A DNA stretch of 61,112 bases, taken from a virus (Duplodnaviria > Caudoviricetes). A model generated the notes under the pieces. The model was not told the origin of the DNA. It searched no databases and saw only the letters and a program-made list of their open reading frames with translations. The stretch lies in IMG/VR virus record IMGVR_UViG_3300032116_000195, positions 1 to 61,112 of that record. One strand, written 5' to 3'. Within the stretch, counting starts at the first letter, position 1. Each line of letters begins with the position of its first letter. Shown in pieces: positions 37,795-53,503 of the stretch. Position numbers and translations under genes: made by a program.

Positions 37795-38547
37795 TTATTG
37801 TTTCCATTTCCATACATACCCATATGCAGTTAGATGTCCGGGTTTGTTATTTGCACATAGAGATATACTTGAATGGCTCTTTCCGATTGACCTAGCGGCT
37901 GCACATGCTGACTCATACTCAGCCAATAATTCTCCATCTAGAGAATACATTAGTATTCTCTTAGAGAATCTTTCTGTAAACCTTTGTCTCCCTGATATTG
38001 ACTTCCCAGTATTAATTGATGATTCTATCTCATCCCACTCTGGAGTATCACCGTAGTGACAAAAAGTAATTCCCTTACTATGATATTGCTTCTTGTGTAT
38101 ACATGCATGTACTGCACCTCTATTTACTCCTGTAGCAAAGGATGCTTCTGATATGCTCTCAAAAGATCCAATATGATTTTTTGTACTAACATCATATGCA
38201 TCTATCGCGTATGACATCTTAAGTTTAAATGACCTCGATCTTTTTCTTTTAGAATATTCTGAGTCTATTCTGCCAAACGAACCATCGCCACCAAATGTTA
38301 GGTTCACAAGATGTCCAGAATTATCTATTCTCCTACCATAAATAGATATAAAGAATTTCTCCCACTCTTTTGCATCATCTACAGACTCAAACTCTTTTAC
38401 TATATCTATCGTGTATGAAGTTTTACCTACTATGTTTTTCCAAAATTTATTACGAGAAGTCTTTTCGTTCGGCCTGTACTTATCTCCTATACCTACATAA
38501 AATACTTGACCATTATCATCCCTAATATGTTGATATAAGTAGTACAT
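37795..38547 (-). CDS. Free-standing GIY-YIG-like homing endonuclease with NUMOD1-type repeats
   Basis: YLYQHIR..VFYVGIG, LVNLTFGGDG and two F.S..EA HTH repeats ending AYGYVWKW. Confidence 0.8.
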   Translation of the reverse strand: MYYLYQHIRDDNGQVFYVGIGDKYRPNEKTSRNKFWKNIVGKTSYTIDIVKEFESVDDAKEWEKFFISIYGRRIDNSGHLVNLTFGGDGSFGRIDSEYSKRKRSRSFKLKMSYAIDAYDVSTKNHIGSFESISEASFATGVNRGAVHACIHKKQYHSKGITFCHYGDTPEWDEIESSINTGKSISGRQRFTERFSKRILMYSLDGELLAEYESACAAARSIGKSHSSISLCANNKPGHLTAYGYVWKWKQ

Positions 38548-44996: not shown

Positions 44997-45257
44997 TTAG
45001 TTGGTGAATATATCTTCGCAGTATTCATCTGCTGTAGGCCAGTCATCATTCAGCATCAATCCGATCATGACAAAGTCAACAGCATCTTGATACGTTTTCC
45101 TGATCATTTCCACCTCATCATCCAGCATCATTTCAATTTCCGTGATCAGCTCATCGTTGTTCATCTGCTTGGCTATATCGAGTAGCCTTCTGAGTGGAGT
45201 TTCAGTTAAACATCTTTCCATAGTAGTCATTGATTTCAGATTTGTAATACTTTTCAA
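44997..45257 (-). CDS. Hypothetical protein (likely start 45221 or 45230)
   Basis: ORF downstream of the integrase. Confidence 0.55.
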   Translation of the reverse strand: MKSITNLKSMTTMERCLTETPLRRLLDIAKQMNNDELITEIEMMLDDEVEMIRKTYQDAVDFVMIGLMLNDDWPTADEYCEDIFTN

Positions 45258-46488
45258 CGTGTCCTACGTACCGCTCAAAGGCGGTGGAATTGGTGCTGTG
45301 TCCACTGGCGAACTTGATGAACCTCTCAGGTACTTTGTTATAGATCATCGTGGTGATGGCGGTCTTCCTGAGCAAGTGAGGGTGGACCCATTCCCATAAT
45401 GGCTTGGAAACAATGAACTCTTTTCCCCGAACATCTACATCTGCAACAGATACGATCTCGTGAAGGTCATCGTACATCCGGAAAAAGTCTTTCATTCCCT
45501 TATAGACAACCTCTCTGTCAGGCTGGATGGAATAGATCCGCCCGTGCCTTGTCAGGTTCTCCCGATAGATGTCGGAAAGGAACTTAGGCAGTGGCATCTC
45601 CGAGTACACACCAGTCTTCTCATTCTTTTTGCGGAGGTAGACAATATCCTTAGTCAAGATCAGATCTTTTTCTGTCAGACTCATGGCGTCTCCGATCCTC
45701 AAGGTTGTGATCAGAATGGTGGCGCTGATCTCCCACAAAAATTTCTGCTCGGGGGACAGCTTATTGTACATACGATCATCATCATTGAGAAACTTACGAA
45801 CAAACTGGTGATCGAATACCACGATGGCTTTCTGATGGCTGTCCAGTCTCTGTATTTTAGGGATAGAGAAGAACAAGCGATCTGCCCAGTACTTGGTAAT
45901 GATACCAGTCATGTTCATGATCTCGGATCTGCTCTTGATGGCCAGTCCACGATCGATCAGATAGTCCTCGTACTTTTTCCAGTAGTTGGCGAAATCATCA
46001 GCCACTTGTCGTTTCTTTTGGGCATCCCAGTTTGGATCGATGTGGTAGTCTCTGATATCCATTGGCTTGTAAAAGTGGGAGTACTCGTTGAGTAGGTTTG
46101 CCACGTACCTATAGATATCAATCGATGCCTTAGAGTAATGCTTCTTGCCATTAGACTTTACCTCGCCAGTTACCATGTACTTGATGTAGCGCATGAATAG
46201 ATCATTGAGGATATAAGTCTCAGTCTCCGGCAGTTCGGGGGGCTTTTCTTCAAACAGCTCACGTACCTTTTTAAAGTCTCTATGTTCGAGATAAAGTTCT
46301 GTGAGTCTTATTCTTGTTCTTGACAGATCAGCATTCAGTTGGGCAACCTCTGCTGTCCTGCCCTTAAACTCGCCATTAAAGCGAAGGTGAGGGTAGATTG
46401 TGATGCCAGTTGATATCCTATAGGATTCACTCCCATCCGATATTCTTGCTTGTACAACCCGACCTCTTGCATAAAACGTAATCTTCAT
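45202..46488 (-). CDS. int: Tyrosine recombinase/integrase
   Basis: Catalytic R (TLRIGD), K (EKTG), HLLR, SGH and Y; N-terminal arm-binding-like ISTGI segment. Confidence 0.9.
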   Translation of the reverse strand: MKITFYARGRVVQARISDGSESYRISTGITIYPHLRFNGEFKGRTAEVAQLNADLSRTRIRLTELYLEHRDFKKVRELFEEKPPELPETETYILNDLFMRYIKYMVTGEVKSNGKKHYSKASIDIYRYVANLLNEYSHFYKPMDIRDYHIDPNWDAQKKRQVADDFANYWKKYEDYLIDRGLAIKSRSEIMNMTGIITKYWADRLFFSIPKIQRLDSHQKAIVVFDHQFVRKFLNDDDRMYNKLSPEQKFLWEISATILITTLRIGDAMSLTEKDLILTKDIVYLRKKNEKTGVYSEMPLPKFLSDIYRENLTRHGRIYSIQPDREVVYKGMKDFFRMYDDLHEIVSVADVDVRGKEFIVSKPLWEWVHPHLLRKTAITTMIYNKVPERFIKFASGHSTNSTAFERYVGHVEKYYKSEINDYYGKMFN

Positions 46489-48160: not shown

Positions 48161-48173
48161 GATTAAATTTTAG

Positions 48174-48244
48174 CACCCATCCGAGGATTCGAACCTCGAC
48201 CTCTGCCTTTGGACGGCATTATTCTACCATTAAAATAGACGGGG
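48174..48244 (-). tRNA. Degenerate tRNA-Trp(CCA)-like gene
   Basis: Cloverleaf with T arm cgagg-TTCGAAT-cctcg, D loop AATGGTA and anticodon loop gtCCAaa; mismatches at 1:72, 10:25 and 27:43. Confidence 0.65.
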
Positions 48245-48254
48245 AGGATAGCGT

Positions 48255-48560
48255 CCTATCCTATATGCGATCGGATATAGTTAGTACCGATTTGGCTTTT
48301 TTATATGCGATGGGGTATAGTATTGCACTATTGACAAGAATAATCTGAATTGCATATAAATATTTACCATAATGTGCGACATAATGCACAGTAACACAAA
48401 TTATGTTAGTGTGCAGATTTTAGTTTATTTAATGGGTAAATTGTATATCACAATTCTTCGAAAATGAATGACAAATGTCAAGTTTTTTGTGCAATTTACT
48501 GGACAAATCTGCCAGTTTCACTACCTAACTATGTCACAAATTTTTGCTGTTTTTGTGACA
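48255..48560. repeat. Array of short palindromes/inverted repeats
   Basis: CTATATGCGATCGGATATAG and a variant copy, TGCACA..TAACA/TGTTA..TGTGCA, and TGTCACAAA-N11-TTTGTGACA. Confidence 0.65.
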
Positions 48561-48594
48561 AAAAAACCCCTTCAACGTAGACACGTTCGGGGGT
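48560..48594 (-). terminator. Intrinsic terminator ending the early small-gene operon
   Basis: Minus strand acccccgaacgt-gtct-acgttgaaggggt then T7. Confidence 0.75.
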
Positions 48595-48606
48595 GGAAAA
48601 CACACA

Positions 48607-48921
48607 CTAAAACGAAGACATCAAAAATTCCTTTCGCCACTCATCCTTAATGCACGGCTCAATGTCTTCCCACAAATAATCTCTCATCAGTTCTTTTATC
48701 TCTCTTTCTTCCCGATCGCCTCGTTCCCAAGTACTATGGACATCCGATCTTCGGTACTCAAAGTTGTGGCTGTGGATCAGTTCGATCAGCCTACTAAATT
48801 TTTCATCTTCCATATTTCTCATGACTTTTATTTCGGTATGGTAGTCTAACATTAAGGACTGGATGTGTTCTATTTCCACCTTGGTTAACACTATCCCAAG
48901 GTCAACGCATTTACTTATCAT
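48607..48921 (-). CDS. Hypothetical early protein
   Basis: 104-aa ORF coupled to the upstream gene. Confidence 0.6.
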   Translation of the reverse strand: MISKCVDLGIVLTKVEIEHIQSLMLDYHTEIKVMRNMEDEKFSRLIELIHSHNFEYRRSDVHSTWERGDREEREIKELMRDYLWEDIEPCIKDEWRKEFLMSSF

Positions 48922-49100
48922 TGTTCAACTGGTTTCATTCCATGATATTCATCTCCAGTCAACCTCTTTTTTTCTCCGTCAAAGAAGGTGACATCGTAAA
49001 CGATGTTCTGACCACCCAAGTAGACTTGCTCTACCTTGGCGACCTTGCCTCTTCCGCTGTAAAATCTAACGTCAAATGTTTTGGTAATTGTCTCTCTCAT
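48918..49100 (-). CDS. Small early protein (SH3-like beta pattern)
   Basis: AC-rich leader before the ATG. Confidence 0.6.
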   Translation of the reverse strand: MRETITKTFDVRFYSGRGKVAKVEQVYLGGQNIVYDVTFFDGEKKRLTGDEYHGMKPVEQ

Positions 49101-49120
49101 TGGTGTGTGGTTTAGTGAGG

Positions 49121-49164
49121 AACTGGCGGTGATATCGCTTCACCTTCGGCCTTTCCTGCCAGTT
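49121..49164 (-). ncRNA. Anticodon-less tRNA-like element A
   Basis: aactggc/gccagtt 7-bp stem plus ggtga-agcgata-tcacc 5-bp arm. Confidence 0.7.
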
Positions 49165-49173
49165 CGGGGGTAA

Positions 49174-49305
49174 TTAATCTTCCCAAGCAGTGATGATCTT
49201 CTCCCCAGTAGAATCATCCAAGTAAATAGTCCAATCTCCAATCGTTACATAGAGGGACTCATCGGATCGAATATCGATCGTGATGCCATTAATAATCATT
49301 TCCAT
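49174..49305 (-). CDS. Small early protein (43 aa, not in ORF track)
   Basis: MEMIINGITIDIRSDESLYVTIGDWTIYLDDSTGEKIITAWED* with aaaaccacacact leader. Confidence 0.6.
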   Translation of the reverse strand: MEMIINGITIDIRSDESLYVTIGDWTIYLDDSTGEKIITAWED

Positions 49306-49567
49306 AGTGTGTGGTTTTATAGTAATTAACTGAATATTGAAATGAACCTTTAGTGCCTTTCTTTACTTCATGTCGGGATGGAACATAGTTTCCATAGTAG
49401 TCTTTATGCCCCATTGCAGAAAGCATACAAGCCCCACATTCGATCAGATGCATAGCCTCCCTTCCGATTGACCCTTCCATCCTCCATGCCATACCCGTGT
49501 CGATTAGGTGTTGGATGTAGTCATAGCCTCGCTCAATTTGGAGTCTTTTGATTGTTTGGTAGTTCAT
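49289..49567 (-). CDS. Hypothetical early protein
   Basis: 92 aa with AC-rich leader. Confidence 0.7.
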   Translation of the reverse strand: MNYQTIKRLQIERGYDYIQHLIDTGMAWRMEGSIGREAMHLIECGACMLSAMGHKDYYGNYVPSRHEVKKGTKGSFQYSVNYYKTTHYGNDY

Positions 49568-49586
49568 GTGTGTGTGTTTTGATGAG

Positions 49587-49634
49587 GACTGCCTCGCCTA
49601 ACGAGGGCGAATGATAGCGGTCTATCGGGCAGTT
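49587..49634 (-). ncRNA. Anticodon-less tRNA-like element B
   Basis: actgcc/ggcagt stem, gatag-accg-ctatc hairpin and tcgcc-ctcgtta-ggcga arm. Confidence 0.7.
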
Positions 49635-49642
49635 CGGGGGTA

Positions 49643-49825
49643 TTATCTACTAACAAATACTCCGTTTTTTGTATACTCTACCTTGTATCCATTTTTTATC
49701 AGTTCAGCATAGTATTCAGACTTCGGCATGATATAACCATCTGCCCTTCGGAATCCGCATCTGCATTTTCCGGTGGATGTCTTCAACTTAATTGTGGACT
49801 TTTTAGTTAGTGCGTTGTCGTTCAT
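49643..49825 (-). CDS. Small early protein
   Basis: 60-aa ORF with an ATGA overlap. Confidence 0.55.
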   Translation of the reverse strand: MNDNALTKKSTIKLKTSTGKCRCGFRRADGYIMPKSEYYAELIKNGYKVEYTKNGVFVSR

Positions 49826-49905
49826 TTTTTCAGTTTTTTGTGGTAAAGTGATGCAAAGATGATGTTCGCAAGTGCGAAGGCGGTGATGGTTGAGATGATT
49901 ACCAT
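49822..49905 (-). CDS. 27-aa membrane peptide
   Basis: MVIISTITAFALANIIFASLYHKKLKK*; coupled on both sides. Confidence 0.5.
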   Translation of the reverse strand: MVIISTITAFALANIIFASLYHKKLKK

Positions 49906-50036
49906 GTTATTCCGAGGATTTGTTTTCCAATGGTGGTTACTTGGCGGTCCATGCCCATCATGTAGAGGGTAATGAATCCGATCTGAATTGTCAAGGCAAG
50001 GGTGACGATGGCGGTCATTGCTTTTAGAACTTTCAT
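49899..50036 (-). CDS. 45-aa membrane peptide (not in ORF track)
   Basis: MKVLKAMTAIVTLALTIQIGFITLYMMGMDRQVTTIGKQILGITW* with AC-rich leader. Confidence 0.6.
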   Translation of the reverse strand: MKVLKAMTAIVTLALTIQIGFITLYMMGMDRQVTTIGKQILGITW

Positions 50037-50056
50037 GTGTGTGTGTTTTGATGAGG

Positions 50057-50098
50057 AACTGAGGGCAGTATCGCTCTGCCTTATCCACTCTCTCAGTT
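50057..50098 (-). ncRNA. Anticodon-less tRNA-like element C
   Basis: aactgag/ctcagtt stem, D-loop-like gagtgg and ggcag-agcgata-ctgcc arm. Confidence 0.7.
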
Positions 50099-50105
50099 CG
50101 GGGGA

Positions 50106-50345
50106 TTACTTTGAAATTTCAGCATCCATTAAGTAATCGTGAATGCAGTCCAATTCAGACTTGTTTAAATCGTTGTAGTCACTTACAAGGAAGGATTCGT
50201 ACATCTTGATGGCATCTGCCCATAGGTAGTCAAGTTCCCTCTCGTTTCGGTCAGGCAGTGACATTGCCATGCAGAAGACCCCGTAACTATTCATGTAGCT
50301 CCTGTGCATTGCTTGGTCAAAATCGGTTGTGTCAATTTTATACAT
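50106..50345 (-). CDS. Hypothetical early protein
   Basis: ATG at 50345 after the AC-rich leader. Confidence 0.65.
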   Translation of the reverse strand: MYKIDTTDFDQAMHRSYMNSYGVFCMAMSLPDRNERELDYLWADAIKMYESFLVSDYNDLNKSELDCIHDYLMDAEISK

Positions 50346-50365
50346 TTTTGTGTGGTTTTGATGAG

Positions 50366-50411
50366 GACTGCCTCCTGTCACGAACAGGATGCCATCAGAA
50401 TGGGGGCAGTT
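50366..50411 (-). ncRNA. Anticodon-less tRNA-like element D
   Basis: actgcc/ggcagt stem, ccat-tctg-atgg hairpin and tcctg-ttcgtga-cagga arm. Confidence 0.7.
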
Positions 50412-50418
50412 CGGGGGA

Positions 50419-50499
50419 TTACATATTCCCTGCTAAGACAAGACCAAAGGCAAGGACGACCAATACGATCATCAAGTAAGTAAAGTCTCTATTTTTCAT
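50419..50499 (-). CDS. 26-aa membrane peptide (not in ORF track)
   Basis: MKNRDFTYLMIVLVVLAFGLVLAGNM*; ATGA overlap, stop abuts element D. Confidence 0.55.
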   Translation of the reverse strand: MKNRDFTYLMIVLVVLAFGLVLAGNM

Positions 50500-50666
50500 G
50501 CATAAAGGTTTGGGTTATTCAATTGCATCCTCAGTAGAAAGGTGCGGTACATTTGTCTCGCCTCCCTTATTGAAATGCCATACAATTCGACATATTGGCG
50601 GACTATCTTGTCATCGATAGTGAAGGTCTTTCTGACCTTGTTTTTTCTGCTAAATACGGGTCTCAT
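50496..50666 (-). CDS. Small basic protein (56 aa, not in ORF track)
   Basis: MRPVFSRKNKVRKTFTIDDKIVRQYVELYGISIREARQMYRTF... with AC-rich leader. Confidence 0.6.
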   Translation of the reverse strand: MRPVFSRKNKVRKTFTIDDKIVRQYVELYGISIREARQMYRTFLLRMQLNNPNLYA

Positions 50667-50677
50667 TGGTGTGTGGT

Positions 50678-50860
50678 TTAAATAGTTACAAATTCGGGTT
50701 CTAACTTGCTTGGCGATGGGTAGATGTAGAAGAATAAGTTCGGGAACTTCTCCTTCAATGCATTAGCCTTTTGTTCGGCATCTTTTCGTTTGTCATAAAA
50801 TCCATGAGTTCCGATTTCATTGTAGTTACCTTCTTCAATTACGTGGTAGTATACTTTCAT
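50678..50860 (-). CDS. Small early protein
   Basis: 60 aa with AC-rich leader. Confidence 0.6.
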   Translation of the reverse strand: MKVYYHVIEEGNYNEIGTHGFYDKRKDAEQKANALKEKFPNLFFYIYPSPSKLEPEFVTI

Positions 50861-50876
50861 CGTGTGTGGTTTTGAT

Positions 50877-50921
50877 TGGGAACTGAGCAGGGAATCGAAC
50901 CCTGCTTACAACCATTCAGTT
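50877..50921 (-). ncRNA. Anticodon-less tRNA-like element E (canonical T loop, encoded CCA)
   Basis: aactga/tcagtt stem, atggtt D-loop-like segment, gcaggg-TTCGATT-ccctgc, then C-CCA. Confidence 0.75.
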
Positions 50922-50928
50922 CGGGGAC

Positions 50929-51108
50929 TTATTCGTTAGGATATATGGTATAATCCTCACCATCTACATTCATCTGCTCCAACTCTTGGTCATACGCAGT
51001 TCCATTGTCTACCATTTCGAGGTACTTTGCTTCTGCCTCTGCCTGAGAACTGGCTTCAATAGTCAACCATGTGGTGTACGTTCTTTGTTGTTTGATTTGA
51101 TACTTCAT
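50929..51108 (-). CDS. Small acidic early protein (59 aa, not in ORF track)
   Basis: MKYQIKQQRTYTTWLTIEASSQAEAEAKYLEMVDNGTAYDQELEQMNVDGEDYTIYPNE*. Confidence 0.65.
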   Translation of the reverse strand: MKYQIKQQRTYTTWLTIEASSQAEAEAKYLEMVDNGTAYDQELEQMNVDGEDYTIYPNE

Positions 51109-51121
51109 TGTGTGTGTGTTT

Positions 51122-51174
51122 GGTTAAGACCACCTTGCGGTGGTTTCGGCTACTCTAAGCCTCATCAGTTAACC
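51122..51174 (-). ncRNA. Hammerhead ribozyme, type I
   Basis: ggttaa CTGATGA ggct-tagagt-agcc GAAA ccacc-gcaa-ggtgg TC ttaacc: complete core and three perfect stems. Confidence 0.93.
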
Positions 51175-51630
51175 TTGCAGTTCGGGAATTTCAATCGTCT
51201 GCTCTTCCAACTTCGATAGTGGTAGCTTATTTGAGAATACCCAACCGAATTCATTGGACATTTTCGCCATCCATTCACGACCTTGTGGGTTATTGGCTAC
51301 ATACCCATCAGCGAAAGGCTTCTCAGTACGTATTGAATTGTCGTAGTATTGGACACGAACAAAAGGGGAGTTGACCATGCTTCCGGAATAGGATACTTCG
51401 TTGATCAACTTTATGCCTTCCGGTATCGTATAAATGGCGAAAAGTTCGGGGTAGTCATTGATGGAATTGAACCTCTCAAGGAATACCACATCATTGTACT
51501 TTTTGTAGCGGTTGACTACCCTTACCCATTCGCTTTGATTGTAGTCACTTTTGGAGTGGTTCAGTACTTCATCGAACGTTAACTCTCTAACTTCCATGAT
51601 AGGAAGCGGTGTGGTGAATGTCAGTTTCAT
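51169..51630 (-). CDS. Hypothetical early protein flanked by two hammerheads
   Basis: 153 aa; the stop codon lies in stem I of the downstream ribozyme. Confidence 0.7.
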   Translation of the reverse strand: MKLTFTTPLPIMEVRELTFDEVLNHSKSDYNQSEWVRVVNRYKKYNDVVFLERFNSINDYPELFAIYTIPEGIKLINEVSYSGSMVNSPFVRVQYYDNSIRTEKPFADGYVANNPQGREWMAKMSNEFGWVFSNKLPLSKLEEQTIEIPELQG

Positions 51631-51643
51631 GTGTGTGTGATTT

Positions 51644-51700
51644 AGTGTGTTTCGCCATTCTGTGGCTCATCAGTTCGGGAGAAATACCCGAAGACACACT
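51644..51700 (-). ncRNA. Hammerhead ribozyme, type III
   Basis: agtgtg TC ttcggg-tatttct-cccgaa CTGATGA gcca-cagaa-tggc GAAA cacact. Confidence 0.93.
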
Positions 51701-51940
51701 CTCATCAGTCACCCTCACGGGTACGCTTTCTGCCGAAGCAGAGACATTGGATACCCAAACGATAAATCAGATTGGGTAGCGGCTGATGGGTTACTTTCGA
51801 TGTGACGTGCCTTGTCGTGGTGGATGTCAGTGCATTGATGGGATTGATTACCCATTGTTGACTCTCCGATTGTGGGTTGCCATGGGGCAGAGCCGATGTC
51901 CCGATTTCGGTTAACACATTCAGTCGATTTCACTCCAATA
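51701..51940 (-). ncRNA. Structured leader RNA of the early operon
   Basis: tctgc-TTCG-gcaga, accc-GTGA-gggt and tacccaa/ttgggta hairpins closed by catcag/ctgatg. Confidence 0.55.
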
Positions 51941-52291
51941 AACAAAGAACTTTTTTGTACTTAGAAATTTTGCACTTACACTCTACACCTCATCCGATAT
52001 TTTCCCTTGCGGTGGTTTCGTTATGTGGTTGCATTTAGACTATTGCACTCAGGCAGTCGCACCATTACTTCAGAGCGGTTGTAAGCGGAAACTTCAAAGA
52101 ACTAAAGTAGTGACTAACTCTCTACTTTCGAGAGTAAAATTGCAAGGAAAATATTTATCCGCAAAATGTGGACTAAGTATTGACAACGAAAAAGAGAATT
52201 TAAAATCTCTACAAATCAGTCATATCAACAACGAAAACGTTTTCGTAAGTTTTAGTAAAAAAGTTTAAAAGTACTTTCTAAAAACTCTCGA

Positions 52292-52495
52292 TTATAGCGT
52301 GTTGAGGTGATTATTCAACCTTGATTGGTCTATAAAAAACATATGGCAGAGTGCGACAACTTCGGGGTCTTCTTCGTTCTTATACTGCATCAGAAGACGG
52401 AGGAATTCGACCTCACTTTTGCCCTCAATTTCTATTATTAATTGCTTCAAGTCTTTAAGTACTTCTGCTTTGGCGGATTCAAAATACGTGTTCAT
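52292..52495 (-). CDS. Hypothetical protein
   Basis: ATG at 52495 after aaccac leader. Confidence 0.5.
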   Translation of the reverse strand: MNTYFESAKAEVLKDLKQLIIEIEGKSEVEFLRLLMQYKNEEDPEVVALCHMFFIDQSRLNNHLNTL

Positions 52496-52585
52496 GTGGT
52501 TAGATTTGGGAGGCGGAAAATACATTACAAAATACTCCCATGATTACGTGATTTCCCGTAATGAAAGTGGGGCAGTTCGGGGGCA

Positions 52586-52909: not shown

Positions 52910-53411
52910 GGGTCGGAAAGGATGAAAAGAAGGGGCGGCAATTGTAACATGACGTTCACCGCCACCTTGTGTGGTTTTTCAGTACTATCGTTGATGTTTT
53001 TTATCGTTTGTCTGCATCCATTTTCCCCTTCCGATTTGCATCCCTTCGGACTCATTGCATCCACTCGCATGATGCACATGATTAAGGCACAACCGATTAG
53101 CATTTTGGATACACTAATGGTGCATTAATTTTGTGTGCCGAAAACCGATTTCGGGATGCCCAAATTGACCCCCACCCGATGCGCAAATCCGACTCCGCAA
53201 CCGCACGCCACACCCACCATTTATATGCATTACCCCCACAATTCATCCACACAAATCCTATTTCTCCAACCAGATCCTACCAACCACAGAACCCACGACT
53301 TTTTGAATGGGCCTGTGAGGTCATTACAGGCGATTCTAGGCGGTCTCTATGTTTAATCAGCAGAGATATTGCGGCAATAACAACCGCCATATTCTTGGTT
53401 TATTAAACCTG

Positions 53412-53503
53412 TAGAACAGGCAGGATTCGAACCTGCAAAGGCAGCTACAACCCTATTCACTTTGTAAGGGGAGCACATCCTACGTACCATACGCCACTGT
53501 TCT
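53412..53503 (-). ncRNA. tRNA-like RNA with expanded, irregular anticodon region
   Basis: agaacag/ctgttct acceptor, gcgt-atggt-acgt D arm and gcagg-TTCGAAT-cctgc T arm; no assignable anticodon. Confidence 0.65.

What the first reader, a model, noticed from the sequence alone, without database searches (positions are those of the whole stretch)
48560..52110. Early operon punctuated by self-cleaving ribozymes and tRNA mimics: candidate mRNA-dicing system
Seen: on the minus strand about 13 tiny ORFs run from a structured leader to one terminator (48560-48594). Each longer spacer holds either a complete hammerhead (51644-51700, 51122-51174) or an anticodon-less tRNA-like fold (five copies). Each element downstream of a gene starts at or within a few bases of its stop codon, and all seven end about 13-21 nt before the next ATG with the same AC-rich leader. 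All seven have CCCGAACTG in or just before them. Established: hammerheads self-cleave; RNase P and RNase Z recognise the acceptor/T-arm helix; T7 processes its early mRNA at RNase III sites. Inference: two chemically different cutters fill the same slot and split one transcript into units of 1-3 genes with defined ends, possibly also releasing small RNAs. I do not know of a described phage operon with this mixed arrangement.
Basis: partly seen in the sequence, partly recalled or inferred. Interest (0 to 1): 0.93.

Follow-up and report, generated by a model that had tools for sequence, protein, structure and literature searches.

The report
Phage operon cut by ribozymes, tRNA mimics
A phage operon of tiny genes has its gene-to-gene spacers filled either by self-cutting hammerhead RNAs or by miniature tRNA look-alikes that the host's tRNA-trimming enzymes probably cut, which suggests that the long-puzzling phage ribozymes simply chop a long message into pieces.

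Summary
On the minus strand, 52110 to 48560, 13-14 small ORFs are separated by two complete hammerheads and five anticodon-less acceptor/T-arm folds (TLEs).

A covariance model of the TLE finds exactly these five in the 61-kb phage. It finds 58 distinct copies in about 20 related phage contigs, always on the operon strand and in one early cluster. Covariation is strong, and spacing is fixed: stop codon, 5-8 nt, TLE, about 18 nt, ATG.

Relatives fill the same slots with type I or type III hammerheads, twister ribozymes or TLEs. An orthologous gene (79% identity) has a hammerhead upstream here and a TLE upstream in a relative.

- CCCGAACTG is not element-specific. It belongs to a genome-wide, strand-biased motif, CCCCCGA[AGT]C, and 11 TLEs in relatives lack it.
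- The leader is not unusually stable.
- Clustered hammerheads dicing phage transcripts were proposed in 2011.

Cleavage of the TLEs by RNase P or RNase Z is inferred, not shown. The RNA data available were uninformative. I found no description of the TLE family or of its interchangeability with ribozymes, so I rate this a new variant of a known kind.

The parts
52291..52318 (-). sigma-70-like promoter match (TTGAAT-16-TATAAT); candidate start of the transcription unit
   Evidence: consensus match only (8 such matches in the region against 13 expected from shuffles)
51701..52284 (-). long 5' leader. It is not unusually stable. It contains a block, about 51985-52103, that is conserved with relative G003.
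   Evidence: fold z = +0.13; alignment A6; contigs of other organisms match 52028-52086
51715..51855 (-). orf0, 46 aa, doubtful ORF inside the leader
51644..51700 (-). HH1, type III hammerhead. Predicted self-cleavage after C51693, so the ribozyme body stays on the 5' end of the downstream mRNA. It ends 13 nt before the ATG.
   Evidence: Rfam RF00008 44.4 bits, E 1.3e-7; fold; 5-sequence alignment with 10 of 15 pairs compensated; coordinates
51169..51630 (-). orf1, 153 aa, no family match. Its stop codon lies inside stem I of HH2.
51122..51174 (-). HH2, type I hammerhead. Predicted cleavage after C51128, which leaves a 19-nt A/C-rich leader with a 5'-OH end on orf2.
   Evidence: core read from the sequence; fold; 4-sequence alignment with 5 of 16 pairs compensated; weak Rfam RAGATH-1-hammerhead match
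50929..51108 (-). orf2, 59 aa. Its orthologue in L088 (79% identity) has a tRNA-like element upstream instead of a hammerhead.
50879..50922 (-). TLE1, type A tRNA-like element: 7-bp acceptor stem, AUGGU linker, T-arm with a UUCGAUU loop, discriminator C
   Evidence: R1 51.9 bits; fold; weak mascRNA-menRNA match at 18.3 bits; coordinates
50678..50860 (-). orf3, 60 aa
50496..50666 (-). orf4, 56 aa, preceded only by an 11-nt A/C leader; orthologues in L004 and L089
50419..50499 (-). orf5, 26 aa, hydrophobic peptide
50365..50412 (-). TLE2, three-way-junction variant (linker hairpin plus a hairpin with loop UUCGUGA)
   Evidence: R1 44.9 bits; fold
50106..50345 (-). orf6, 79 aa. Its orthologue in L004 is preceded by a type A TLE.
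50055..50099 (-). TLE3, type B (GAGAGUGG linker, AGCGAUA loop)
   Evidence: R1 64.4 bits; fold
49899..50036 (-). orf7, 45 aa, hydrophobic
49822..49905 (-). orf8, 27 aa, hydrophobic
49643..49825 (-). orf9, 60 aa
49586..49635 (-). TLE4, three-way-junction variant
   Evidence: R1 32.4 bits; fold z -3.4
49289..49567 (-). orf10, 92 aa. Its orthologue in L004 is preceded by a type A TLE.
49174..49305 (-). orf11, 43 aa
49119..49165 (-). TLE5, type B' (..CCGAAG linker, AGCGAUA loop)
   Evidence: R1 56.4 bits; fold
48918..49100 (-). orf12, 60 aa
48607..48921 (-). orf13, 104 aa
48560..48594 (-). terminator-like hairpin that contains CCCCCGAAC and is followed by U7
   Evidence: fold -12 kcal/mol, z -1.3; not listed by the simple scan

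Best explanation
This is the early operon of a roughly 61-kb phage. Its nearest cultured relatives are Flavobacteriaceae phages, at only 33-34% identity. Its intercistronic spacers carry interchangeable RNA-cutting modules.

Two modules are hammerheads that cut themselves. HH1 (type III) severs the long leader and stays on the 5' end of the first mRNA. HH2 (type I) stays on the 3' end of orf1 and leaves orf2 with a 19-nt leader.

Five modules are minimal tRNA 'top halves': a 7-bp acceptor stem stacked on a T-arm, with no anticodon arm. These offer the features that host RNase P and a 3' tRNA endonuclease such as RNase Z recognise. RNase P would cut before G+1. RNase Z would cut after the discriminator C.

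Cutting would split the transcript into units of 1-3 genes. Each unit would keep its stop codon and would begin with a uniform A/C-rich leader of about 18 nt. Cutting would also release tRNA-like RNAs of 44-50 nt.

Shown here: the elements exist, the folds are under selection, the slot geometry is fixed, and the element classes swap at equivalent junctions. Inferred: that RNase P and RNase Z are the cutters, and what the processing is for.
For: Hammerheads
- Both have complete catalytic cores.
- In relatives the cores are invariant and the stems change in a compensatory way. Type III: 10 of 15 pairs in 5 sequences. Type I: 5 of 16 pairs in 4 sequences.

tRNA-like elements (TLEs)
- Model R1 finds exactly 5 strong hits in the window, all in the operon and all on its strand.
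- 58 distinct copies were found in relatives, all on the operon strand. There were none in 16 distant loci.
- Whole records hold 1-7 copies, each set in a single cluster.
- 93.4% of cells are paired, 9 of 12 pairs carry double changes, and 0 of 500 shuffles reach the observed score. Slid controls give 25-48% paired.
- The change GAAC to GAGC is compensated four times.
- tRNA hallmarks: 23 of 58 have a UUCGAnU loop, 47 of 58 have a G:C pair closing the loop, and 56 of 56 have discriminator C.
- A scan that used structure alone found 11 further type A elements whose acceptor stems have entirely different sequences but are still paired.

Slot geometry
- 37 of 46 TLEs lie 5-8 nt after an ORF stop. 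48 of 58 end 13-20 nt before an ATG, with a mode of 18.
- Type I hammerhead cleavage leaves 19-22 nt.

Slot swapping
- Hammerhead and TLE swap upstream of orthologous orf2.
- TLE subtypes swap upstream of orf6 and orf10 orthologues.
- Twister-P1 and type III hammerheads alternate as the first element after the leader.

Established knowledge, recalled rather than tested here
- Acceptor/T-arm minihelices are substrates of bacterial RNase P and of RNase Z.
- Plant mitochondrial t-elements (PMC1920247; abstract seen in the listing) and mascRNA are processed in this way.
Against: - There is no direct evidence of cleavage. The one RNA library that holds the phage gave two short contigs inside orf1 only.
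- No TLE reaches any Rfam threshold. The tRNA model does not match, and mascRNA matches at 18.3 bits against a threshold of 42.5.
- Only 23 of 58 TLEs have a canonical T-loop. The other subtypes (AGCGAUA or CUCGUGA loops, three-way junctions) are less tRNA-like.
- The stacked helix is 13 bp in many copies, not 12.
- The invariant C-run before G+1 and the near-invariant GAACUG have no role in RNase P recognition. They belong to a genome-wide motif that is unexplained.
- The host is unknown, so its RNase P and RNase Z could not be examined.
- The phage encodes no recognisable RNA-processing enzyme among the ORFs I scanned. Only part of the roughly 76 ORFs were scanned.
- Model R1 was trained on motif-bearing copies, so the counts of motif conservation lean towards the motif.
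Confidence: 0.55

Rival explanations
1. The tRNA-like elements are not cut. They act as uncleaved structural modules: insulators that stop upstream coding sequence from pairing with the next initiation region, barriers against exonucleases, or ribosome standby or tRNA-mimic sites that aid initiation on leaders without a Shine-Dalgarno sequence.
For: The element-to-ATG spacing is fixed at 13-20 nt in 48 of 58 copies, and the leaders are uniform and A/C-rich. The same leader also occurs with no element before it, as at orf4 and orf11. Type III hammerheads and twisters stay attached upstream of the leader after they cut, so a 5' structure next to the leader is common to all classes.
Against: The same slots hold ribozymes whose catalytic nucleotides are invariant. 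Cutting itself therefore appears to be selected in this slot. A plain hairpin would serve as an insulator, yet 23 of 58 copies keep the tRNA T-loop consensus and an AUGGU linker.
Confidence: 0.2
2. The main product is the released small RNA. The 44-50-nt tRNA top halves, possibly after CCA addition, would act as decoys or sponges for host factors that read the acceptor/T-arm, such as defence toxins or tRNA enzymes that act on the acceptor end. mRNA dicing would then be a side effect.
For: The acceptor sequence and the discriminator C (56 of 56) are far more conserved than processing alone would need. There are 5-7 copies per genome in the earliest transcript. Early operon proteins have no known families, as is typical of host-takeover genes.
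Against: 11 type A copies have unrelated acceptor sequences. Hammerheads and twisters replace TLEs at equivalent slots, and they release no tRNA-like RNA. There is no evidence that such RNAs exist.
Confidence: 0.12
3. The elements work at the DNA level. They would be conserved linkers or attC-like folded sites at which gene cassettes are shuffled by the phage recombination functions (ERF annealing protein, RecE-like exonuclease, tyrosine recombinase).
For: The layout is cassette-like. Orthologous ORFs have different neighbours and different elements on either side. Identical TLE copies occur within one genome: L004 123-179 and 1075-1131, and L089 3582-3638 and 3940-3996. The element ends are an inverted GAAC...GTTC. 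ERF, a RecE-like exonuclease and a tyrosine recombinase are encoded.
Against: Recombination through homology does not need covarying helices, yet the T-stem covaries in 5 of 5 pairs. The T-loop consensus is asymmetric, and every copy lies on the transcribed strand. The recombinase has only a generic match (30 bits against a cut-off of 220), with no integron-integrase match. G:U cells (20) outnumber A:C cells (10), which is only weak evidence.
Confidence: 0.08
4. Chance hairpins, or ordinary terminators and attenuators.
For: Individual fold z-scores are modest, -1.5 to -3.4.
Against: 58 covarying copies sit in fixed slots. No U-run follows them. Model R1 separates them from everything else in 61 kb by at least 15 bits.
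Confidence: 0.01

Closest known systems
Clustered hammerhead ribozymes in prophage and phage polycistronic transcripts (Perreault et al. 2011, PMC3088659; passages read)
   Same: Several hammerheads flank single genes or short gene blocks. The authors proposed that they process long phage RNAs into gene- or operon-length mRNAs, and ~2-kb fragments were cleaved in vitro. In haloviruses HF1 and HF2 a hammerhead lies 13 nt upstream of the first early ORF, the same distance as HH1 here.
   Different: That work involves ribozymes only. Here most slots hold tRNA-like elements that cannot cut themselves, and these swap with hammerheads at orthologous junctions.
Co-location of different self-cleaving ribozyme classes near phage-type genes (stated in PMC5737381 and in PMC6765202 section 13; passages read; Weinberg 2015 itself was not held)
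   Same: Type I hammerheads, type III hammerheads and twisters occur together in one gene neighbourhood of relatives.
   Different: That literature leaves the function open. The tRNA-like family is not in Rfam 15: a search at E up to 10 gave only a mascRNA match at 18.3 bits.
Plant mitochondrial t-elements and the mitochondrial tRNA punctuation model (PMC1920247, abstract seen in the listing; the rest recalled)
   Same: Acceptor-stem plus T-arm mimics without an anticodon arm sit at mRNA ends and are cut by RNase P and RNase Z to define mRNA termini.
   Different: Those are organellar. This is a phage of a bacterium, the elements are mixed with ribozymes, and processing has not been shown.
mascRNA / MEN-beta tRNA-like elements (Rfam RF01684)
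   Same: A tRNA-like fold embedded in a long transcript, cut by RNase P and RNase Z, which releases a small tRNA-like RNA. It is the only Rfam model to touch TLE1.
   Different: Those are eukaryotic nuclear lncRNAs and have a cloverleaf-like fold. The match is far below threshold (18.3 against 42.5 bits), so this is a functional analogy and not membership.
Engineered polycistronic tRNA-gRNA and ribozyme-flanked arrays, and RiboJ insulators (recalled, not searched)
   Same: Engineers use tRNAs and hammerheads interchangeably to cut one transcript into defined units with uniform 5' ends.
   Different: Those are synthetic. This would be a natural counterpart.

Membership tests
Hammerhead ribozyme, type III (HH1) | Conserved core CUGANGA ... 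GAAA and an NUH cleavage triplet | tested here: met
   CUGAUGA, GAAA and GUC are all present and are invariant in 5 homologues.
Hammerhead ribozyme, type III (HH1) | Three stems around the core, with stems I and II closed and stem III open | tested here: met
   MFE fold; 10 of 15 pairs show compensatory changes.
Hammerhead ribozyme, type III (HH1) | Rfam RF00008 gathering score | tested here: not met
   44.4 bits against 48.5; E 1.3e-7 in a 4.1-kb search.
Hammerhead ribozyme, type III (HH1) | Self-cleavage activity | not testable with these tools
   No informative RNA data.
Hammerhead ribozyme, type I (HH2) | Core, GUC triplet, stems II and III closed, stem I open | tested here: met
   Sequence; fold; 4 homologues with the core invariant apart from the variable position 7, and 5 of 16 pairs compensated.
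Hammerhead ribozyme, type I (HH2) | An Rfam model at its gathering score | tested here: not met
   Only RAGATH-1-hammerhead, at 22.4 against 56.3 bits.
tRNA | Cloverleaf with D-arm and anticodon arm | tested here: not met
   ARAGORN and the Rfam tRNA model find only the two tRNA genes at 48173-48244 and 53411-53503. The TLE linker is 10-20 nt.
tRNA-like processing element (t-element or mascRNA type) | 7-bp acceptor stem stacked directly on a T-arm | tested here: met
   Folds; 12 pairs, 93.4% paired, with covariation.
tRNA-like processing element (t-element or mascRNA type) | T-loop consensus (UUCRANY closed by G:C) | tested here: inconclusive
   Met by TLE1 and by 23 of 58 family members. The other four window copies have AGCGAUA, UUCGUGA or CUCGUUA loops.
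tRNA-like processing element (t-element or mascRNA type) | Cleavage by RNase P at the 5' side and RNase Z at the 3' side | not testable with these tools
   Needs enzyme assays or 5'-end mapping.
Twister ribozyme | Match to a twister model in the window | tested here: not met
   None at E up to 10 in 48300-52400. Relatives L091 and L092 have twister-P1 at 47.5 and 47.9 bits, below the gathering score of 67.2.
Integron gene-cassette array (attC sites) | Integron-type integrase next to the array | tested here: not met
   The tyrosine recombinase at 45202-46488 has only generic matches.
Intrinsic terminator | GC-rich hairpin followed by a U-run | tested here: not met
   TLEs are followed by CUCAUCAAAAC, not by U-runs. 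Only 48560-48594 has U7.

The most novel reading that the evidence does not exclude
A phage 'punctuation code': host tRNA-processing enzymes and at least three kinds of self-cleaving ribozyme serve as interchangeable cutters at gene boundaries.

Beyond that, the tRNA top halves released may be functional small RNAs. The genome-wide, strand-biased motif CCCCCGA[AGT]CUG, which is identical to the 5' flank plus the 5' acceptor strand, may mark further sites. These could be read in trans, for example by a TLE 3' half acting as a natural external guide sequence for RNase P on other phage RNAs. Alternatively the motif may be a DNA-level self-marker of this phage clade.
Probability: 0.1. Interest if true: 0.92.

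Novelty: new variant of a known kind. Interest (0 to 1): 0.76.

Why it matters
What the many self-cleaving ribozymes in bacteria and phages are for is still an open question (PMC6765202 section 13).

If a host-enzyme substrate such as a tRNA mimic can replace a hammerhead or a twister at the same gene junction, the selected function is probably just a cut at that place. It would not be something peculiar to ribozyme chemistry. That turns the question into a direct experiment.

The finding would also add a phage case to the tRNA-punctuation principle, known so far from organelles. It would define a new structured-RNA family that is absent from Rfam 15. It would be a natural counterpart of the tRNA- and ribozyme-processed arrays used in engineering.

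The genome-wide motif is a second, separate puzzle.

Tried and rejected
- **RNA evidence.** One search for runs and one laying. RNA run X20 gave only two short contigs inside orf1 (51173-51421 and 51445-51595) plus one piece from a relative. X24 gave nothing. Logan contigs cannot show RNA ends. No conclusion on cleavage either way.
- **Host.**
  - blastn of the operon against cultured phages: no match.
  - Primase/helicase against genome contigs: 7 distant loci, best 45% identity, in a Flavobacteriaceae MAG contig.
  - R1 against 151 genomes of that family: none found in those searched.
  - tblastn: nearest cultured phages are Tenacibaculum phage JQ and Flavobacterium elemoviruses, at 33-34%.
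  - The host remains unknown.
- **orf1 relatives.** None in IMG/VR.
- **Structured leader.** z = +0.13, rejected.
- **Twister or another known ribozyme in the window leader.** None at E up to 10.
- **TLE as a new self-cleaving class.** Rejected as unlikely, because the interior differs completely between subtypes and there is no shared junction core.
- **Peptide-level origin of the motif.** Rejected: it occurs in all three codon phases and in both orientations.
- **Motif as a feature of the host genome.** Not enriched in MAG G006, 3 against 7 for the control.
- **IMG/VR pattern scan.** Most hits were chance. Only 7 of the 69 new loci searched (6 contigs) hold real TLEs.
- **Phage-encoded RNase, ligase or CCA enzyme.** None among the 34 ORFs scanned. 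About 40 ORFs were not scanned.
- **Literature.** Seven searches found no description of a phage operon that mixes ribozymes with tRNA-like elements. Supplements are closed, so the supplementary motif lists of PMC5737381 and the alignments of PMC3088659 could hold such elements unseen. Weinberg 2015 was not held.
- **The search of earlier findings.** Closed.

Full report
**What the window is.** The 61,112-base window is the whole record, a single phage contig. It encodes a large terminase, a primase/helicase, an ERF annealing protein, a RecE-like exonuclease, a tyrosine recombinase, a dNMP kinase, a NUMOD/I-HmuI-like endonuclease and giant structural proteins. Late genes lie on the plus strand (1-33.4 kb). 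Early and replication genes lie on the minus strand (34-53 kb). The nearest cultured phages are Tenacibaculum phage JQ and the Flavobacterium elemoviruses, at only 33-34% amino-acid identity in the primase/helicase. Elemovirus elemoA shares the layout: an operon of tiny ORFs, then ERF, an exonuclease, a tRNA and the primase/helicase. The host is not established.

**Checking the observation.**
- On the minus strand, 13-14 ORFs of 25-153 aa run from about 51855 to 48607.
- HH1 (51644-51700) is a complete type III hammerhead. Rfam scores it 44.4 bits, E 1.3e-7, just under the gathering score of 48.5.
- HH2 (51122-51174) is a complete type I hammerhead: GGUUAA, CUGAUGA, stem II, GAAA, stem III, GUC, UUAACC. 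Rfam sees it only weakly.
- The five further spacers each fold into a 6-8-bp closing stem. The 3' strand of that stem abuts a 5-6-bp hairpin with a 7-nt loop.
- Exact limits are G+1 to discriminator: 50922-50879, 50412-50365, 50099-50055, 49635-49586 and 49165-49119.
- Stop codons lie 6-8 nt upstream of G+1. The next ATG lies 18-19 nt after the discriminator. Both hammerheads end 13 nt before their ATG.

**Are the tRNA-like elements (TLEs) real?** The primase/helicase found 23 related IMG/VR loci at 60-75% identity. I aligned 32 elements (A1) and built covariance model R1.
- With filters off, R1 finds exactly the five window copies at 32.4-64.4 bits. The next hit in 61 kb, both strands, scores 17.6 bits.
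- Across relatives R1 finds 58 distinct copies. All copies with E below 1e-3 lie on the primase/operon strand. There are none in 16 distant loci at about 40% identity.
- In five whole records there are 1, 2, 6, 7 and 7 copies, each set in a single cluster of a few kilobases on one strand.
- 93.4% of cells are paired. 9 of 12 pairs carry changes on both sides (134 cells). 0 of 500 shuffles reach the observed covariation score. Sliding the partner gives only 25-48% paired. This alignment was fitted to the model, but the MAFFT alignment A1 gives the same picture: 90.7% paired, 8 of 12 pairs, 0 of 500.
- Where the 5' strand reads GAGC instead of GAAC, the 3' strand reads GCUC, four times.

**How tRNA-like are they?**
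- 23 of 58 have the UUCGAnU T-loop with an (A/U)UGG(U/A) linker in place of the D and anticodon arms. 47 of 58 close the loop with G:C. All 56 scorable copies have discriminator C.
- A scan that asked only for a T-arm next to any paired acceptor found 44 distinct elements:
  - 24 with the C-run/GAAC motif;
  - 2 with GAAC but no C-run;
  - 7 that are parts of true tRNA genes or tRNA-like genes;
  - 11 type A elements with entirely different, still complementary acceptor stems, for example GAGAGCG/CGCUCUC in L092 (fold).
- The fold, and not the shared 9-mer, is therefore what is kept.
- No copy is a tRNA by ARAGORN or Rfam. The only Rfam contact is the mascRNA model, at 18.3 bits.
- The other subtypes (GAGAGUGG or ..CCGAAG linkers with AGCGAUA-type loops, and three-way junctions) are less tRNA-like.

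**The slot.**
- Of the 58 TLEs, 46 have an ORF of at least 25 aa ending just upstream. In 37 of those 46 the gap from stop codon to G+1 is 5-8 nt.
- 48 of 58 end 13-20 nt before an ATG that opens an ORF of at least 25 aa (mode 18, n = 21). Six more have 33-35 nt. The five at 35 nt carry a short AAUGC..GCAG segment that looks able to form an extra small hairpin, which I did not fold.
- Type I hammerhead cleavage leaves 19-22 nt.
- The twisters of L091 and L092 end about 19-20 nt before the next ATG.
- Every predicted cut leaves the upstream stop codon intact.

**Hammerheads and twisters in relatives.**
- Five type III hammerheads (window, L001, L018, L088, L090) keep the core invariant, except that L088 reads CUGACGA at the variable position 7. 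10 of 15 pairs change in a compensatory way.
- Four type I hammerheads (window, L001, L010, L014) keep the core invariant apart from the variable position 7, and 5 of 16 pairs change in a compensatory way.
- L091 and L092 carry twister-P1 matches at 47.5 and 47.9 bits (E about 1e-7, below the gathering score of 67.2) as the first element after the leader. The window, L088 and L090 have a type III hammerhead in that position.
- The cultured elemoA phage has a weaker hammerhead-III-like match (36.3 bits, E 6e-5) just before its first early ORF, and no TLE. Its stem III looks short, so I do not count it as established.

- Window orf2, preceded by HH2, is 79% identical to an ORF in L088 that is preceded by a type A TLE. 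A third member of that orthologue cluster, in L089, also has a type A TLE upstream.
- Orthologues of orf6 and orf10 have a type A TLE in L004 where the window has other subtypes.
- Several orthologue groups have a TLE in one phage and only a short leader in another.
- The same upstream ORF is followed by different TLE subtypes in L088 and L090.
- The elements are thus modules independent of both neighbouring genes.

**The shared 9-mer.**
- CCCGAACTG is present at all seven window elements, but it is not specific to them. It occurs 16 times against 0.2 expected.
- It is part of a wider motif, CCCCCGA[AGT]C(TG). CCCCCGA occurs 42 times against about 3 expected. CCCCCGAAC occurs 20 times, CCCCCGAGC 11 and CCCCCGATC 7.
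- Of 51 CCCCGA sites, 34 are on the operon strand and 17 on the other. In the late region, 17 are antisense to the genes and 7 are sense.
- Inside genes the motif falls in all three codon phases and encodes unrelated peptides. It is therefore a signal at the nucleotide level.
- Relatives share both the enrichment and the strand bias: 18 to 5, 11 to 3 and 7 to 4, against controls of 0-2. A distant phage and a Flavobacteriaceae MAG do not.
- One antisense site in the primase gene is kept in 13 of 17 genomes, through the codon choice CGG-GGN.
- In relatives the motif also forms terminators of the form GCCCCCGAACUGGGGGC followed by a U-run. It also directly follows the stop codon of the gene upstream of the operon's promoter region (52573-52582).
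- Among hammerheads of relatives, the exact 9-mer sits in stem I of only 1 of 5 type III copies, the window's own HH1. A motif copy lies just upstream of 2 of 4 type I copies: the 9-mer in the window and the CCCCCGAGC variant in L001.
- I cannot explain the motif. It accounts for the invariant 5' strand of most TLEs without being needed for the fold.

**Mechanism.**
- Shown: the elements, their selection as folds on the transcribed strand, the slot geometry, and the swapping between classes.
- Established elsewhere (recalled): acceptor/T-arm minihelices are RNase P and RNase Z substrates. Plant mitochondrial t-elements and mascRNA work this way.
- Inferred: host RNase P cuts before G+1. A 3' endonuclease cuts after the discriminator; none of the five window copies is followed by CCA, which would block RNase Z. 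The result would be 1-3-gene mRNAs with uniform leaders of about 18 nt, plus small tRNA-like RNAs.
- The hammerheads would give 5'-OH ends. HH1 would remove the roughly 580-nt leader, measured from a consensus promoter match.
- The purpose is open. It could be independent stability or translation of the cistrons, removal of the triphosphate leader, or insulation from upstream sequence.

**What is against this reading.**
- There is no cleavage evidence.
- Most subtypes are only loosely tRNA-like.
- The stacked helix is often 13 bp.
- The C-run is unexplained.
- The host is unknown.

The rival readings are uncut insulators, functional decoy RNAs, and DNA-level recombination linkers. They are weighed in their own sections. 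The last is weakened by helix covariation, by strand specificity and by the lack of an integron-type integrase.

**Prior art and novelty.**
- Perreault 2011 (PMC3088659, passages read) already described clustered hammerheads flanking genes in prophages. It proposed processing into gene- or operon-length mRNAs, showed in vitro cleavage, and noted a halovirus hammerhead 13 nt before the first early ORF.
- Reviews still call the function unresolved (PMC6765202 section 13).
- Seven full-text searches found no description of tRNA-like elements sharing these slots. Supplements could not be read.
- I rate it a new variant of a known kind: a new RNA family, plus the new point that a host-enzyme substrate and ribozymes are interchangeable.

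Noticed in passing
whole window, e.g. 216, 1301, 18935, 26313, 39561, 46240, 52582, 57471: Genome-wide motif CCCCCGA[AGT]C(TG). There are 51 CCCCGA sites, 34 on the operon strand and 17 on the other. It occurs inside genes in all codon phases and both orientations, and is shared with related phages but not with distant ones. Its function is unknown: it could be a DNA-level marker, a nick or modification site, or an RNA signal on early-strand transcripts.
   Followed up: partly
window 53411-53503 (-): A tRNA-like gene, called tRNA-Gly(CCC) by ARAGORN and scoring 31.8 bits on the Rfam tRNA model. It has a normal acceptor stem and T-arm but about 36 extra nt in the anticodon region. The T-arm scan picked up two possibly similar stretches in L091.
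   Followed up: partly
window 48173-48244 (-) and 48453-48481 (-): A tRNA-Trp(CCA) gene lies about 320 nt downstream of the operon terminator, behind its own promoter-like match.
   Followed up: no
window about 51985-52103 (-): A block in the operon leader is conserved with relative G003, with at least one compensated stem (GACU/AGUC against GCCU/AGGC). It is matched at about 90% identity by much more abundant contigs of other organisms in DNA run X6 and RNA run X20 (52028-52086). It is a candidate structured RNA with no Rfam match.
   Followed up: partly
L091 2585-2649 (-); L092 2451-2512 (+): Twister-P1 ribozyme matches (47.5 and 47.9 bits, below the gathering score) at the head of the early operon in two related phages. 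The window has a type III hammerhead in that position.
   Followed up: partly
window 51701-51708 (-): A second CUGAUGAG lies immediately 5' of HH1, overlapping nothing that I could fold into a second ribozyme.
   Followed up: no
L001 1540-1574, L002 310-344, L004 482-514, L089 (after the TLE at 1830-1887): Some TLEs are followed by a short AAUGC..GCAG segment that looks able to form an extra small hairpin, lengthening the leader to 33-35 nt. I did not fold it.
   Followed up: no
L004 123-179 and 1075-1131; L089 3582-3638 and 3940-3996: Identical or nearly identical TLE copies within one genome, which suggests recent duplication or gene conversion between elements.
   Followed up: no
L007 6404, L010 16361, L011 3442, L020 16647, L022 6538: Terminators built from the motif itself: GCCCCCGAACUGGGGGC followed by a U-run.
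   Followed up: no
L209 10302-10358 (+), GenBank MT497075.1: The cultured Flavobacterium phage elemoA has a hammerhead-III-like match (36.3 bits, E 6e-5) 13 nt before its first early ORF. Stem III looks short. It is a possible culturable test system.
   Followed up: partly
window 37795-38547 (-): A free-standing endonuclease-like gene with NUMOD1 and I-HmuI-like domains. Any link to the genome-wide motif is pure speculation.
   Followed up: no
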